Virus record (IMG/VR): IMGVR_UViG_2778261593_000002
Span: 1-10,619 of that record
Source of the DNA: a virus
Taxonomy: Duplodnaviria; Heunggongvirae; Uroviricota; Caudoviricetes
Length of the DNA: 10,619 nt
Reading direction: 5' to 3' (one strand)
Below, piece by piece: positions 1 to 8,788 of this stretch. A model generated the notes under the pieces. The model saw only the letters and a program-made list of their open reading frames with translations. It was not told the DNA's origin and did not search any database. Both the position numbers and the translations under genes were made by a program. The stretch's first letter is position 1. The number at the start of each line of letters is the position of its first letter.

Positions 1-101
1 TAAGTATTCTGCGCAATTTCCCCGACGGTCGCCGGTTCGGTGACGCTTAATTCATTAAACACCACTCTGGCGGTTTCGGTCATATCCTGCTGTTTTAGCA
101 T
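1..101 (-). CDS. Window-truncated CDS (first 33 codons only), unknown product; first gene downstream of the Q-dependent late promoter/terminator
   Basis: ATG at 101..99 preceded by AAGGGA Shine-Dalgarno-like motif about 7 nt upstream; frame stays open to the window edge; translation MLKQQDMTETARVVFNELSVTEPATVGEIAQNT. No family recognised. Confidence 0.3.
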   Translation of the reverse strand, partial: MLKQQDMTETARVVFNELSVTEPATVGEIAQNT

Positions 102-224
102 GTCTTTTTCCCTTTTAAGGTTAACGTGACATACCAATAACTCTTGTCGAAAAAGCCAGCAAGCTGAAAGACCGGTATCCGCAACCACCAGCTCGTTTAA
201 CGTCCTGTACCGCTTTTCGGGCAC

Positions 225-251
225 AAAAAAACCCGCTTGGCGGCGGGTTTT
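225..251 (-). terminator. Intrinsic terminator (tR'-like) downstream of Q and the late promoter; bidirectional architecture
   Basis: Plus strand reads AAAAAAA-CCCGC-TTGGCG-GCGGG-TTTT: 5-bp GC stem (232-236 / 243-247), 6-nt loop, flanked by A-run and T-run. On the minus strand the hairpin is followed by 7 U residues. Confidence 0.6.
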
Positions 252-301
252 GCTTACTTTGCCATCGCGTACAAAATCGGCAAAATATCAGATTTGCATG
301 A

Positions 302-330
302 AATATATGCTTTTCAATCTACTTTTGCAA
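302..330 (-). promoter_or_regulatory. Sigma70 promoter directly after the Q stop codon (PR'-like late promoter, candidate qut region)
   Basis: Minus strand reads TTGCAA (coords 330..325) - 17 nt - TATATT (307..302). The -35 overlaps the last Q codons; predicted start near 295, about 50-70 nt upstream of the terminator at 225-251. A -10-like TATTTT lies in the early transcribed region. Confidence 0.5.
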
Positions 331-1003
331 TACTTTGCTTTGAAAATGCCGCCTTTTGTTCCGAACGCGTCCTCATTACCAACAATAAAGCCTCACTATC
401 CAGCTGGTGGAAAATGTGTTTCATTGCAACCCAGTGACCAGTAAATGTTTTGGACCAGTTTTTAGTTGTCACTCCCGCCAGTAATGCCAGATCCTGGTAT
501 TCATAACCTTCCCCGCCAAAAAGTTCTGCTTTTACTGCCTGCGCCGCCAGCCAGATTAATTTTTTCAGGCGTTCCCGTGTTTTCTCTGCAATTTTCCTGT
601 TGCCAGAATGAGCCTTAAACTCTTCCCATGCCCAGCGGGTTATGGTGACCTGATACTCCCAGCAAATATTTCCGCTGTAACACCACAACAACCAGGTTTT
701 ATGAGGTTCTTCAAGAGACAGAACAGCCCGTCGCCATGAGGATGTCGAAAACTCAACCTGACTTACCAGAGGAATTGACGTCCCCTTCGCCAGCGATTGT
801 TTCCCCGGGATTGGTGGATTATCCCGCGTGATCATTTTTCCAGTCACTTCATCGCAGTACCGGATTTTTTTACGCCTGTAACGCCCTGTATCGAACATGG
901 CATTCTCCTGCCAGGCTTCAAGCTGACCTTTTGTTGCCCCACTCAAATCGGCGGTGGCGATAATGAGCTGCTCACGAACAAACTGTAAATACTGGTTATT
1001 CAT
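314..1003 (-). CDS. Phage antitermination protein Q (non-lambda, phage 82/21-type Q family), 229 aa
   Basis: ORF 314..1039 trimmed to ATG at 1003..1001, which overlaps the rusA stop (ATGA coupling). It sits directly downstream of rusA and upstream of a strong promoter plus terminator, the canonical Q position. Family assignment is from memory of Q-like proteins. Confidence 0.65.
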   Translation of the reverse strand: MNNQYLQFVREQLIIATADLSGATKGQLEAWQENAMFDTGRYRRKKIRYCDEVTGKMITRDNPPIPGKQSLAKGTSIPLVSQVEFSTSSWRRAVLSLEEPHKTWLLWCYSGNICWEYQVTITRWAWEEFKAHSGNRKIAEKTRERLKKLIWLAAQAVKAELFGGEGYEYQDLALLAGVTTKNWSKTFTGHWVAMKHIFHQLDSEALLLVMRTRSEQKAAFSKQSIAKVD

Positions 1004-1366: not shown

Positions 1367-2699
1367 TCATGCTTTCCACTTCAGAACACCCGAATTTTTC
1401 GCGTGCATTAAAAAACGAATCAGCAACAACAGCTGGCTGCCGTGTTTTTCTTCAAAATCTTTTACCCCAGCATGCAGTTCGTTATGGCATTTGCGGCACA
1501 GCGGAATAACAAACAAATCGTCAGCCTTTGTTCCCATCCCTCCCAGCCCATGACCAATGATGTGGTGCGGATCATCTGCCTGATTGCCACACGTCACGCA
1601 TTTCTGCGTTTTTACCCAGCGCGTGTATACGGGCATCTCTTCCCGTTGTGGTTTCTGGCGCTGGAGATACTGAGCCGGAGACTCCGGATCAACGGCAATG
1701 CTGACCACCGTCTTTTCCTGTGGCAGGCTCTGTTGCTGGTGGACGTGAGGCGGTAGCACAATATTTTTTGTGCGCTGCTTCAGTATGCTGGTGGCTGTCT
1801 GCTCTCCAGGTACGATGTCGCTGTCGCGGTACACTGAGAGGATTTTATCCGCACGCAATCCCAGCGAACGACGTAATACTGCCTCCGGTAATGCGTCCGC
1901 TACCTGATTGCAGACCGCCCACCAGGATAATTCAGCCAGCGATAATTCCCGCTCCTGTGTGCCATTCATTGCGTGACGGATGACGTCAGTCATCCATGCT
2001 GACAGGTTTTGATGAGCAAGTTGCCCGAGTGATTCGGAAGTCTGGTCACGCAGCTGGTTGTCGCAGTGCCAGCACAACACCATCGCGCCGGTACCGTAAC
2101 GATGTATGACGGTTTCGCTGTGGTGATAGTCGCCATGAGGCCACTGGCAGGATTTGACATGACGCAACAGCCAGTCAGAAAGTGCACCAGCGCCGCCAGC
2201 AGCACGAATCACCCGTTCGTTACTGAAAAACGGCAGCAATGTTTTGTCTTCCGCCAGCGGCTGGCGAATGGCAGGAACGACTCCGGACGGCAGACCGCGC
2301 ATGCTTTTCGGTTCCGGCTCCACCAGCACTCGAGGGTTATGAAATACCTGCATGGATTCACGACCAGGCTTAAGGACCACCAGCCCGAGTTCCGGTACCG
2401 GAACAGGTCGAAGCAATACCCGCACGTTACCTCCAGATCCGTTGCTGGAATGTGCGGGACGGACGCGGTGGGCGTTCAGAGTAAGGCAGTCTGACTGAGA
2501 TGATCCAGTGTCGGAAGTCGAGGCTGAGGTCTTTCTGAAACTCGTAACCACGTCTGCGGTAGTTCTGAATCAGCCATTCGGCCTGTTCTTCAGTGCATGG
2601 ATCATGCTGGAACCAGTCAGATTTGAATGCATGAGAACGCCGCCCGTGCCTGCTGGCAAGGTCGGTATCAGAATTGTGATGTTTGGTATTGTGCGCCAT
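1367..2699 (-). pseudogene. DUF968-family (YdfU-like) protein with HNH-like Cys/His zinc motif, split across two reading frames (frameshift or sequencing error)
   Basis: C-terminal part in ORF 1367..2551 contains CVTCGN..HHIIGHGLGG..CRKCHNELH. N-terminal part is in a different frame (ORF 2427..2825, probable ATG at 2699..2697). The two frames overlap over 2427..2569 and both look coding-like. Same position as ydfU between hok and Q in Qin-type prophages. Confidence 0.5.
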
Positions 2700-2760
2700 C
2701 GGTTTTCTCTGCTGGCGCAGCAGGTGCCAGTTGTTCAGGCTGGCCTGTGGATTGTAAACC

Positions 2761-2786
2761 AGAATACGTAAAACAAAAAACCCGCC
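2761..2786 (-). terminator. Intrinsic terminator of the hok/mok mRNA
   Basis: Minus strand reads AACCCGC-UUCG-GCGGGUU followed by UUUUUGUUUU: 6-bp GC stem, UUCG tetraloop, U-run (plus-strand A-run 2761-2770). Confidence 0.6.
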
Positions 2787-2791
2787 GAAGC

Positions 2792-2806
2792 GGGTTAAGC
2801 GCGGGT
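2792..2806 (-). promoter_or_regulatory. 3' fold-back element of the hok mRNA (fbi-like), complementary to the predicted mRNA 5' end
   Basis: Plus 2792-2806 GCGGGTGCGTTGAGG is the reverse complement of plus 3180-3193 CCTCAAGCACCCGC with a single 1-nt bulge, so the 5' and 3' ends of the minus-strand transcript can form a 14-bp duplex, as in hok-family mRNAs. Confidence 0.5.
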
Positions 2807-2865
2807 GCGTTGAGGATGCCGACACATCAGAGGTGGCGGGAGATTACTCTCCCGCCTGGTCACTC

Positions 2866-3021
2866 TTACTTCTCAGATTCGTAGTCTACGAAGACAGCAA
2901 CCTCCGTCTGGCCGGTTCGGATTCGTACCTCGCAGAGGTCTTTCCTCGTTACCAGTGCCGTCACTATGACGGTTAAACAGATGACGATCAGGGCGATTAA
3001 CATCGCCTTTTGCTGCTTCAT
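2866..3021 (-). CDS. hok: Hok/Gef-family type I toxin (small membrane peptide), 51 aa
   Basis: MKQQKAMLIALIVICLTVIVTALVTRKDLCEVRIRTGQTEVAVFVDYESEK is near-identical to Hok/Gef/RelF family sequences recalled from memory. ATG at 3021..3019 with AAGGAG Shine-Dalgarno 9 nt upstream. Confidence 0.9.
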   Translation of the reverse strand: MKQQKAMLIALIVICLTVIVTALVTRKDLCEVRIRTGQTEVAVFVDYESEK

Positions 3022-3078
3022 AGCCTGCTTCTCCTTGCCTTTCGGCACGTAAGAGGCTAACCTACATTTGTGAGACAT
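2866..3078 (-). CDS. mok: Mok-like in-frame N-terminally extended reading frame sharing the hok stop codon (70 aa)
   Basis: ATG at 3078..3076 with GAGG about 9 nt upstream; in frame with hok and adds 19 residues (MSHKCRLASYVPKGKEKQA). This mirrors the mokC/hokC arrangement (longer frame sharing the 3' end). Confidence 0.55.
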   Translation of the reverse strand: MSHKCRLASYVPKGKEKQAMKQQKAMLIALIVICLTVIVTALVTRKDLCEVRIRTGQTEVAVFVDYESEK

Positions 3079-3120
3079 AGATTGGGCCTCAGATTAATGT
3101 TAAGCGTCTTGCAGGACGCG
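3035..3120 (+). ncRNA. Candidate Sok-like antisense RNA region (promoter plus RNA) opposite the mok translation initiation region
   Basis: Plus strand TTGCCT (3035-3040) - 17 nt - TAACCT (3058-3063) would start transcription near 3070, antisense to the mok Shine-Dalgarno/ATG (3076-3095). A hairpin GCGTC-TTGCAG-GACGC lies at 3104-3119 but no clean U-run follows. Weak evidence. Confidence 0.25.
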
Positions 3121-3179
3121 TAATGTTAACTGGGGCTTTTCTCTATCTGCCTTTTGGTGTTCATGCCTGAGGCAGATAG

Positions 3180-3225
3180 CCTCAAGCACCCGCAGCAATT
3201 CTACTTAACTCTCCTTTTCCCGCAA
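3180..3225 (-). promoter_or_regulatory. Putative hok/mok promoter and mRNA 5' end
   Basis: Minus strand TTGCGG (3225..3220) - 16 nt - TAGAAT (3203..3198); predicted start near 3191, which coincides with the 5' partner (3193..3180) of the fold-back pairing. A 9-bp hairpin CTATCTGCC / GGCAGATAG (3144-3179) lies in the leader. Confidence 0.4.
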
Positions 3226-8058: not shown

Positions 8059-8151
8059 GAGTCGCTCCATAAAACTGAACGTCAAAAGTTTAATAATCAA
8101 AACCAAAAAAAGTCAAGAAACAAAACCATCTGTGTTTTAAAATCAAAACAT
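8059..8151. promoter_or_regulatory. Divergent immunity control region (OR-like): PR-like and PRM-like promoters with a palindromic operator
   Basis: Perfect inverted repeat TGTTTT-aaaatc-AAAACAT at 8133-8151, overlapping the CI start codon and a TAAAAT -10 (8138-8143). Minus strand has TTGACT at 8116..8111 followed by AT-rich -10 candidates for the cro-like gene. No Shine-Dalgarno precedes the CI ATG, suggesting a leaderless transcript. Confidence 0.55.
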
Positions 8152-8788
8152 GAGCAAGCAAACTATATCTGAACGCATAACCCAACGTATGCATGCGCTA
8201 AACCTGAAAGGCAAAGACCTTGTCAATGGCACTGGCGCATCAAAAGGCTCCGTAAGTCAATGGATGAACGGTGGAGGAGCGCCGTCCTCGCGTTACATAA
8301 GTTCACTGGCAAAAATATTGAAAGTAAACGAAAATTGGCTTCTTAATGGAGGAGAGTTAAATACAGGTGATTCGCTTGATCTATCTTTACCGCCGATAAA
8401 AACGGTTCCGCTACTATCACTTCAGCAGGCAGCAAGCTGGAGTGATTATATGAAAAATTCCTCAATAACCTCTTGTGTGCAGCTTGTCGGAGAAATCCCG
8501 GTCAATACCTTTGCAGTTGTTCTAGAGAGTGACAGTATGTCAACATCTGGTGGGGGAGTTTCCATCCCAAATGGTTCAACAGTTTTTGTTGATCCCGATC
8601 GAACCGTACAACCAGGAAATATTGTCCTTGCCTTACCCAAAGGGACCACAACACCTGTCATTCGTAAACTGGAGATAGAAGGGCCGGATATTCTTTTAGT
8701 CCCCACGAATCCTCGCTACCCTTCAATTATGCTGGATGATCTATCTTGCATATTGGGCGTATGCTTTAAAATTCAACAAGATATTTAA
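8150..8788 (+). CDS. CI-type prophage repressor with N-terminal HTH and C-terminal S24 (LexA-like) autopeptidase domain, 212 aa
   Basis: N-terminal HTH (ISERITQRMHALNLKGKDLVNGTGASKGSVSQW); C-terminal ESDSM...VFVDPDR...VIRKL...LVPTNPRYPSI parallels lambda CI motifs GDSM / VDPE / KKL / LNPQYPMI. Confidence 0.85.
   Translation: MSKQTISERITQRMHALNLKGKDLVNGTGASKGSVSQWMNGGGAPSSRYISSLAKILKVNENWLLNGGELNTGDSLDLSLPPIKTVPLLSLQQAASWSDYMKNSSITSCVQLVGEIPVNTFAVVLESDSMSTSGGGVSIPNGSTVFVDPDRTVQPGNIVLALPKGTTTPVIRKLEIEGPDILLVPTNPRYPSIMLDDLSCILGVCFKIQQDI

What the first reader, a model, noticed from the sequence alone, without database searches (positions are those of the whole stretch)
225..330. Compact PR'-like promoter and terminator immediately downstream of Q
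A near-consensus promoter (TTGCAA-17-TATATT) overlaps the end of Q and is followed within about 70 nt by a strong hairpin and U-run terminator. A -10-like TATTTT sits in the initial transcribed region, a candidate sigma-dependent pause/qut element. The short distance is more like phage 82/21-type Q systems than lambda.
Basis: partly seen in the sequence, partly recalled or inferred. Interest (0 to 1): 0.4.

Follow-up and report, generated by a model that had tools for sequence, protein, structure and literature searches.

The report
Phage 82-type late promoter and terminator
This is the ordinary late-gene switch of a lambda-like E. coli prophage of the phage 82 type: a promoter, an RNA polymerase pause signal and a terminator just after the Q antiterminator gene, a well-studied arrangement found in many E. 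coli genomes.

Summary
All of it lies on the minus strand. The upstream gene (1003..314) encodes a 229-aa Q protein of Pfam PF06323, 76% identical to phage 82 Q.

- **Promoter:** TTGCAA (330-325), a 17-bp spacer, TATATT (307-302). It overlaps the last Q codons.
- **Start and pause element:** the inferred start is A295. TGATATTTT lies at +6..+14 and GCC at +15..+17. U at +25 matches published descriptions of 82 pR'.
- **Match to phage 82:** +1..+17 is 17/17 identical to a prophage whose Q is 100% identical to Q82.
- **Terminator:** stem 247-232 and seven U (231-225), giving an RNA of about 71 nt.

The layout TTGCAA-17-nATATT-11-TGrTAnnnT recurs behind Q relatives down to about 30% identity, from Escherichia to Aeromonas. 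Of 128 distinct leaders, 122 carry an intrinsic terminator ending at +53..+99.

The system is 82-type, not 21-type or lambda-type.

Two extras emerged. A hairpin whose 5' arm is the pause element recurs with partner-matched changes. The Salmonella sRNA IsrJ sits behind the same promoter layout in Gifsy-1, so this leader resembles IsrJ in position but scores below Rfam's threshold.

This is an ordinary, known kind of element.

The parts
314..1003 (-). Q antiterminator gene, 229 aa, phage 82 family. Its start codon overlaps the rusA stop (ATGA).
   Evidence: PF06323 at E 7.8e-89. 76% identical to phage 82 Q and 74% to phage 434 Q. No solved structure matches by sequence.
325..330 (-). -35 hexamer TTGCAA of the late promoter PR'. 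It lies inside the last Q codons (I-A-K).
   Evidence: The same hexamer occurs at the same spacing in relatives retrieved by protein similarity alone. It also occurs in phiNP, where the promoter lies 38 nt past the Q stop.
308..324 (-). 17-bp spacer AAGTAGATTGAAAAGCA, the candidate Q-binding element (QBE). It contains the Q stop TGA at 316-314.
   Evidence: In Q systems the QBE lies between -35 and -10 (PMC4914094). 14 of 17 positions match the spacer of the Q82-identical prophage. Binding was not tested.
302..307 (-). -10 hexamer TATATT of PR'.
   Evidence: Relatives carry nATATT at this position.
295..295 (-). Inferred transcription start (+1, A).
   Evidence: It is the seventh base after the -10. 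This numbering places GCC at +15-17 and U at +25 as published for 82 pR'. Inferred, not measured.
282..290 (-). Sigma70-dependent pause element TGATATTTT at +6..+14, an extended -10-like sequence.
   Evidence: TGrTAnnnT sits exactly 11 nt after the -10 in all but three relatives retrieved by protein similarity. It matches the description of 82 pR'.
279..281 (-). Discriminator-like GCC at +15..+17.
   Evidence: GCC at +15-17 is needed for the phage 82 pause (PMC5001585). The sequence is identical here.
270..271 (-). Predicted pause positions +25 (U271) and +26 (A270).
   Evidence: 82 pR' pauses at +25/+26 with U at +25 and G at +24. The window has G24 U25 A26. Inferred.
255..287 (-). Leader hairpin 1 (+9..+41). 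The 5' arm UAUUUUGCCG is the RNA copy of the pause element and the 3' arm is UGGCAAAGUA.
   Evidence: Folds at -8.8 kcal/mol. It recurs in relatives with partner-matched changes: own partner against swapped partner gives p 0.0005 over 20 arm classes and p 0.02 over 8 families. A fixed-register count is weak. The same helix appears in the Rfam isrJ consensus.
225..251 (-). Intrinsic terminator tR': A-tract, stem CCCGC/GCGGG, loop CGCCAA and U7 (231-225).
   Evidence: -13 kcal/mol, z -2.4. 122 of 128 distinct related leaders have a terminator ending at +53..+99, with 63 different hairpins, against 34 of 372 control segments. The mosaic junction lies here.
3..101 (-). Start of the first gene after tR', cut by the window end. 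It is a small protein annotated as TrmB-family regulator or hypothetical.
   Evidence: A DNA methyltransferase, tRNAs, lysis genes and terminase follow in the 99%-identical STEC316 prophage.

Best explanation
This is the late-gene control unit of a phage 82-type lambdoid prophage.

1. Host sigma70 RNA polymerase starts constitutively at PR' (-35 at 330-325, -10 at 307-302, start near A295).
2. Sigma70 stays on the polymerase and re-binds the extended -10-like element TGATATTTT at +6..+14 on the non-template strand.
3. The complex scrunches and pauses near +25/+26.
4. Without Q, the polymerase escapes and stops at the intrinsic terminator (stem 247-232, U-run 231-225). It releases an RNA of about 71 nt and the late genes stay off.
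5. When Q has been made from the early rightward operon, it binds the spacer DNA between -35 and -10 and engages the paused complex, probably with NusA.
6. Q then travels with the polymerase, which reads through tR' and later terminators into the methylase, tRNA, lysis and head genes.

**Shown here:** the sequence elements, their exact spacing, the Q family and conservation across relatives.

**Inferred from published phage 82 work:** the start site, pausing, Q binding and read-through.
For: - **Q family:** PF06323, 76% identical to Q82.
- **Leader identity:** +1..+17 is 17/17 and -36..-1 is 31/36 identical to the leader of a prophage whose Q is 100% identical to Q82.
- **Fit to the literature:** the layout fits 82 pR' as described in PMC5001585 and PMC4914094.
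- **Conservation found by protein similarity alone:** relatives at 57-63% Q identity (Citrobacter, Raoultella, Klebsiella, Enterobacter, Salmonella), Cronobacter at 51%, and relatives at 28-35% (Hafnia, Morganella, Aeromonas, Citrobacter phiNP, an E. coli phage) keep TTGCAA-17-nATATT-11-TGrTAnnnT. In phiNP the promoter does not overlap Q coding sequence.
- **Pattern scan:** in a scan that did not require Q, 200 of 212 sites had a Q82-like ORF just upstream.
- **Terminators:** 122 of 128 distinct leaders have a terminator ending at +53..+99, with 63 different hairpins.
- **Late genes:** they follow in a 99%-identical prophage.
- **Gene context:** cI-like repressor, Cro, YdaT, a replication gene, DUF968, RusA and Q, with the genes from Cro to Q on the Q strand.
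Against: - Nothing was measured. There is no transcription start, pause or read-through data for this sequence.
- The promoter match alone (9 of 12) is at chance frequency.
- The loci from the pattern scan match the pattern by construction, so only the protein-derived loci are independent support.
- The spacer differs from phage 82 at three positions. All three also change the last Q codons or the stop codon, so Q binding here is assumed.
- The prophage could be defective.
Confidence: 0.9

Rival explanations
1. The roughly 71-nt RNA is mainly a trans-acting small regulatory RNA of the lysogen, like IsrJ, StxS or IsrK. On this view the promoter and terminator serve chiefly to produce it. This can coexist with the late-switch role.
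For: - In Gifsy-1 the experimentally detected sRNA IsrJ (74 nt, PMC2330248) sits directly behind the same promoter and pause layout.
- The window leader gives full-length but sub-threshold hits to isrJ and isrK.
- Its shape is typical of an sRNA: a single-stranded 5' end, a hairpin, then a terminator with a U tail.
- PMC7547250 proposes that leaders of antiterminated promoters are a source of sRNAs.
Against: - The isrJ score is 22.1 bits against a threshold of 37, and isrK is 23.8 against 50.
- The conserved 5' part is explained by DNA-level needs (the pause element). The rest varies freely among relatives.
- No target or Hfq binding is known for this sequence.
Confidence: 0.25
2. The terminator merely ends the early rightward operon after Q, and the promoter-like and -10-like matches are chance.
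For: The promoter-like match is 9 of 12, and such matches occur at chance frequency (4 found, 2.4 expected in 3 kb). The terminator directly follows the last early gene.
Against: The exact spacing of -35, -10 and TGrTAnnnT is kept behind Q proteins down to about 30% identity. It is also kept where the promoter lies outside Q coding sequence. The leader is identical over +1..+17 to that of a Q82-identical prophage.
Confidence: 0.03
3. The unit is a decayed remnant in a cryptic prophage and no longer works as a switch.
For: Many E. coli prophages are defective, and related Q regions occur in 2476 of 5426 complete E. coli genomes. The window shows only the early region.
Against: The Q ORF is intact at full length (229 aa), and all cis elements are intact and identical to the phage 82 type over +1..+17. 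The 99%-identical prophage carries lysis and terminase genes.
Confidence: 0.08

Closest known systems
Phage 82 late control region (Q82, pR', QBE, sigma70-dependent pause at +25, t82)
   Same: - Same Q family (PF06323, 76% identity).
- Same -35 TTGCAA, 17-bp spacer and -10 TATATT.
- Identical +1..+17, including TGATATTTT and GCC at +15-17.
- G24 U25 at the pause site.
- A hairpin after the pause and a nearby intrinsic terminator.
   Different: - Three spacer positions differ. These are also the Val/Leu codon and the TGA/TAA stop of Q.
- +18..+48 is only 17/31 identical.
- The terminator hairpin is unrelated (CCCGCCGCCAAGCGGG against CTCGAGGTTTAAAGCCTTGGG).
- Different genes follow: a small regulator-like gene and a methylase instead of holin and lysozyme.
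- The phage 82 sequence used here is from a prophage with an identical Q, not from a phage 82 record.
Phage 434 Q region (record OL657226, Q annotated 'Q82-like', terminator annotated)
   Same: Q is 74% identical. The -35, the spacing and TGGTATGTT at +6..+14 match, and a terminator follows.
   Different: The 434 leader is short, about 54 nt, with the terminator starting near +28. It has GTA instead of GCC at +15-17 and no long hairpin 1.
IsrJ sRNA of Salmonella Gifsy-1 (Rfam RF01393)
   Same: It lies behind the same TTGCAA-17-TATATT-11-TGATATnnT layout. It is about 74 nt, starts with AAAUCUGAUAU, has a hairpin using +13..+18 as its 5' arm, and ends in a terminator.
   Different: The window leader scores 22.1 bits against a threshold of 37. 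The hairpin and terminator sequences differ. In Gifsy-1 an isrK/C4-like/anrP module separates Q from this promoter.
Lambda PR' / 6S RNA / tR' and Q-lambda
   Same: Same logic: a constitutive late promoter, a sigma70-dependent promoter-proximal pause, a QBE in the promoter, a terminator and a short RNA in lysogens.
   Different: The Q family is unrelated (PF03589). The lambda pause is at +16/17 and the leader is 194 nt, against about 71 nt here.
StxS sRNA of Stx phages
   Same: It is a short RNA made from PR' and ended at tR' in lysogens (PMC7547250).
   Different: StxS is a 258-nt transcript cut by RNase E to 74 nt. Here the primary transcript is itself about 71 nt. Sequence similarity was not tested.

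Membership tests
Phage 82-type Q antitermination unit | A Q protein of the Q82 family (Pfam PF06323) encoded immediately upstream | tested here: met
   PF06323 at E 7.8e-89 is the only Pfam hit. 76% identity to Q82 over all 229 aa.
Phage 82-type Q antitermination unit | A sigma70-type promoter at the 3' end of Q | tested here: met
   TTGCAA-17-TATATT at 330-302, with the Q stop inside the spacer. 31/36 identical to the Q82-identical prophage. This is a sequence-level result only; activity was not measured.
Phage 82-type Q antitermination unit | A Q-binding element between -35 and -10 that is bound by Q | not testable with these tools
   The spacer is 14/17 identical to the phage 82 type. Similar spacers recur even where they are non-coding. 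Binding cannot be tested here.
Phage 82-type Q antitermination unit | An extended -10-like pause element at about +6..+14, a GC-rich discriminator at +15-17 and a pause at +25/26 | tested here: met
   TGATATTTT, GCC and G24 U25 are present and identical to the phage 82 type. They fit the published description. Pausing itself was not measured.
Phage 82-type Q antitermination unit | An intrinsic terminator between the promoter and the late genes | tested here: met
   -13 kcal/mol hairpin plus U7 at 251-225. 122 of 128 related leaders have one.
Phage 82-type Q antitermination unit | Late (lysis and morphogenesis) genes downstream on the same strand | tested here: met
   The window ends after 33 codons of the next gene. 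In the 99%-identical STEC316 prophage, methylase, tRNAs, holins, endolysin and terminase follow.
Phage 82-type Q antitermination unit | Q-dependent read-through of the terminator | not testable with these tools
   This needs in vitro transcription or reporter assays.
Rfam isrJ (RF01393) | Covariance-model score at or above the gathering score of 37 bits | tested here: not met
   22.1 bits, E 0.12, full-length match at 227-298 on the minus strand. Gifsy-1 scores 100.3 and CobraSix 62.6.
Rfam isrK (RF01394) | Covariance-model score at or above the gathering score of 50 bits | tested here: not met
   23.8 bits, E 0.006. True isrK belongs to a different module in Gifsy-1, with C4-like RNA hits.
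Lambda-type (PF03589) or 21-type (PF06530) Q systems | A Q protein of that Pfam family | tested here: not met
   Neither family matched at E up to 0.01. The family assignments come from PMC9388147.

The most novel reading that the evidence does not exclude
Two linked readings are not excluded.

1. The hairpin at +9..+41, whose 5' arm is the RNA copy of the sigma70 pause element, may be a selected part of long Q82-type leaders. It could shield terminator folding, or it could stabilise the released RNA.
2. These leaders may form one sRNA family with Salmonella IsrJ. IsrJ would then be the PR'-tR' by-product of a Q82-type late promoter. None of the papers I read say this.
Probability: 0.3. Interest if true: 0.45.

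Novelty: new member of a known kind. Interest (0 to 1): 0.2.

Why it matters
The unit marks where late transcription of this prophage starts and how it is held off, which helps annotate this prophage and its many relatives. It matters little as a discovery, because the phage 82 system is well studied and related Q regions occur in nearly half of complete E. coli genomes.

Two points have modest value. The cross-genus alignment defines which positions of the Q82-type promoter, spacer and pause element are kept, which is useful because no Q82 structure has been solved. The IsrJ link suggests that a Salmonella virulence-associated sRNA is a late-promoter leader RNA.

Tried and rejected
- **Phage 82 pR' sequence in papers:** text searches for the leader sequence found only unrelated papers, because the sequences sit in figures. 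No supplementary text was held. I used a prophage with an identical Q instead.
- **Phage 82 record:** X92588 ends at the Q stop, so it gives no leader sequence.
- **Solved structures:** the Q protein has no significant match by sequence.
- **Rfam:** only sub-threshold hits in the window.
- **CII-dependent antisense promoter (paQ):** phage 434 is annotated this way. The TTGYN6TTGY box at 325-338 on the plus strand is at chance level (3 found, 3.05 expected). It is kept only where the Q codons are kept, and the phage carries YdaT at the cII position. Rejected.
- **Fixed-register covariation count for hairpin 1:** weak. 63.6% of cells paired against 62.2% shuffled, and the covariation score was reached by 19 of 500 shuffles. 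The helix register shifts between groups. Register-free partner-swap tests gave p 0.0005 and, more conservatively, p 0.02.
- **IsrK as homologue of the leader:** rejected. In Gifsy-1 isrK belongs to an inserted module, and isrJ is the positional counterpart.
- **Telomere phages N15 and PY54:** their Q (27-28% identity) shows no such promoter after the gene.

Full report
**What is in the sequence**

All features lie on the minus strand. Genes from position 8106 down to 314 run on that strand. They are a P22-Cro-like gene, a YdaT-family gene, a replication gene, DUF977, DUF551, DUF968, RusA and then a 229-aa ORF at 1003..314. An S24-peptidase repressor gene points the other way at 8150-8788. This is the early region of a lambdoid prophage.

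The 229-aa protein matches only Pfam PF06323 (E 8e-89). PMC9388147 gives PF06323 as the Q82 family. The protein is 76% identical to phage 82 Q and 74% to phage 434 Q across its full length. No solved structure matches it by sequence.

**The elements, in order**

| Element | Sequence | Window position | Relative to start |
|---|---|---|---|
| -35 | TTGCAA | 330-325 | |
| Spacer (holds Q stop TGA, 316-314) | 17 bp | 324-308 | |
| -10 | TATATT | 307-302 | |
| Start (inferred) | A | 295 | +1 |
| Extended -10-like element | TGATATTTT | 290-282 | +6..+14 |
| Discriminator-like | GCC | 281-279 | +15..+17 |
| AT-rich stretch ending G24 U25 A26 | | to 272-270 | to +24..+26 |
| Hairpin 1 | | 287-255 | +9..+41 |
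| Terminator stem | CCCGC/GCGGG | 247-232 | |
| U-run | seven U | 231-225 | |

The predicted RNA is about 71 nt and folds at -22.6 kcal/mol (z -2.7). The terminator alone folds at -13 kcal/mol. The next gene starts at 101.

**Is it more than chance?**

The promoter match alone is not. It scores 9 of 12, and such matches occur 4 times in 3 kb against 2.4 expected. The composite pattern occurs once against 0.01 expected, but that pattern was taken from the window itself. The decisive evidence is comparative.

**Comparison with phage 82**

The phage 82 record ends at the Q stop. I therefore took a prophage whose Q is 100% identical to Q82 and whose upstream genes match. Its leader is identical to the window over +1..+17 (17/17) and matches 31/36 over -36..-1.

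Both leaders fit what PMC5001585 says of 82 pR':
- an extended -10-like pause element closer to consensus than lambda's;
- GCC at +15-17;
- an AT-rich stretch;
- pauses at +25/+26 with U at +25;
- a one-base insertion at +18 that puts G at the pause end, which requires G at +24.

PMC4914094 places the Q-binding element between -35 and -10.

**Distant relatives**

These loci were retrieved by protein similarity only.
- **Group at 57-63% Q identity, plus Cronobacter at 51%:** Citrobacter, Raoultella, Klebsiella, Enterobacter, Salmonella and Cronobacter.
- **Group at 28-35%:** Hafnia, Morganella, Aeromonas, Citrobacter phage phiNP and an E. coli phage.

All of these keep TTGCAA (one TTGCGG, one TTGAAA), 17 bp, nATATT (CAGAAT in Cronobacter, TACATT in CobraSix), 11 bases, then TGrTAnnnT. 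A terminator follows.

In phiNP the promoter lies 38 nt past the Q stop, so coding constraint cannot explain the conserved -35 and spacer there. The exceptions are N15, PY54 and the site just after Gifsy-1 antQ.

A pattern scan of viral contigs that did not require Q brought the pooled set to 212 sites, and 200 of them had a Q82-like ORF just upstream. Of 128 distinct leaders, 122 have an intrinsic terminator ending at +53..+99 (median +73). These use 63 different hairpins. The same lax scan found terminators in 34 of 372 coding-sequence controls. The terminator's function is conserved while its sequence turns over.

**Context and mosaicism**

The window is 99% identical to a prophage of E. 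coli STEC316. There the leader is followed by a small gene, a DNA methyltransferase, two tRNAs, holins, an endolysin and terminase.

The Q-promoter module matches PPompW-type phages down to position 220. The downstream module matches phiP27 from position 250. The mosaic joint therefore lies in the terminator.

Related Q regions occur in 2476 of 5426 complete E. coli genomes. The element is common.

**Mechanism**

Reasoning by homology with phage 82:
1. Sigma70 polymerase starts at PR'.
2. Retained sigma70 binds the -10-like element.
3. The complex pauses near +25.
4. Q bound to the spacer, helped by NusA, engages the paused complex.
5. Q makes the polymerase resistant to tR'.
6. Without Q, the 71-nt RNA is released.

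The sequence elements and their conservation are shown here. The start site, pausing, Q binding and read-through are inferred.

**Hairpin 1**

Its 5' arm (UAUUUUGCCG) is the RNA copy of the pause element. Its 3' arm is UGGCAAAGUA.

Leaders fall into two types:
- **Long leaders (66 variants):** these carry such a hairpin, with matching changes. Examples are AUGCUGCC/GGCGGCAU, GUGCC/GGCAC, UGUCA/UGACA and GUCG/CGAC.
- **Short leaders (24 variants):** these go straight from the pause site into the terminator.

Three tests were run:
- A fixed-register pair count is weak.
- A register-free test favours each arm's own partner: -8.3 against -6.8 kcal/mol for swapped partners, p 0.0005 over 20 arm classes.
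- The same test gives p 0.02 after collapsing to 8 families.

Support is moderate. The hairpin's role is unknown.

**Link to IsrJ**

The window leader gives full-length but sub-threshold Rfam hits to isrK (23.8 bits, threshold 50) and isrJ (22.1 bits, threshold 37).

Gifsy-1 AntQ is 64% identical to this Q. However, isrK sits in an inserted module that also matches the C4 antisense RNA models. Past that module, isrJ (100 bits) lies directly behind TTGCAA-17-TATATT-11-TGATATCGT. The last five Q82 codons and the stop are still in place there.

IsrJ is a detected 74-nt sRNA linked to invasion (PMC2330248). The papers I read do not describe it as a late-promoter leader. The window RNA is thus its positional counterpart, but it is not a member by Rfam's score.

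**Verdict**

The observation and the interpretation both hold. This is an uncharacterised member of the well-known phage 82-type late switch. Interest is low. The hairpin and the IsrJ link are minor leads.

Noticed in passing
L095 (Gifsy-1, NC_010392) 3014-3121 and 2198-2396: The sRNA IsrJ (Rfam 100 bits) lies directly behind a Q82-type promoter and pause element that still carries the last Q82 codons. The isrK/C4-like/orf45/anrP module appears to be inserted between antQ and its own late promoter. The papers I read do not say this.
   Followed up: partly
window 255-287 (minus strand) and related leaders: A leader hairpin whose 5' arm is the sigma70 pause element recurs with partner-matched changes in long leaders. 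It is absent from short leaders such as that of phage 434. Its function is unknown.
   Followed up: partly
window about 118-150 (minus strand): A motif like GACAAGAGTTATTGGTATGTCAC, about 40 nt upstream of the small gene's ATG, also appears upstream of the homologous gene in phiNP, Hafnia phage yong2 and a Morganella phage. It could be a regulatory site.
   Followed up: no
window 220-250: The mosaic joint between the Q-promoter module (PPompW-like) and the downstream module (phiP27-like) falls inside the terminator. Both module families share this kind of terminator hairpin.
   Followed up: partly
L006 (E. coli TUM9812) 2300-3220: In several E. coli prophages a PemK/MazF-family toxin gene is inserted right after tR', ahead of the small regulator-like gene.
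   Followed up: no
window 325-338 (plus strand): TTGCAATACTTTGC fits the CII-box consensus that the phage 434 record annotates as paQ. Such boxes are at chance frequency in the window (3 found, 3.05 expected).
   Followed up: yes
window 259-286 (plus strand): A promoter-like match TTGCCA-16-CAAAAT lies antisense to the leader. It is the complement of the hairpin 1 arms and may be a side effect of that inverted repeat.
   Followed up: no
window 1000-1003: The rusA stop and the Q start overlap (ATGA), which suggests translational coupling.
   Followed up: no
L097 (Klebsiella phage Kp4856-1) 1648-1843: An Rfam STnc100 sRNA match (88 bits) lies a few hundred bases downstream of the Q82-type leader in this Klebsiella phage.
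   Followed up: no
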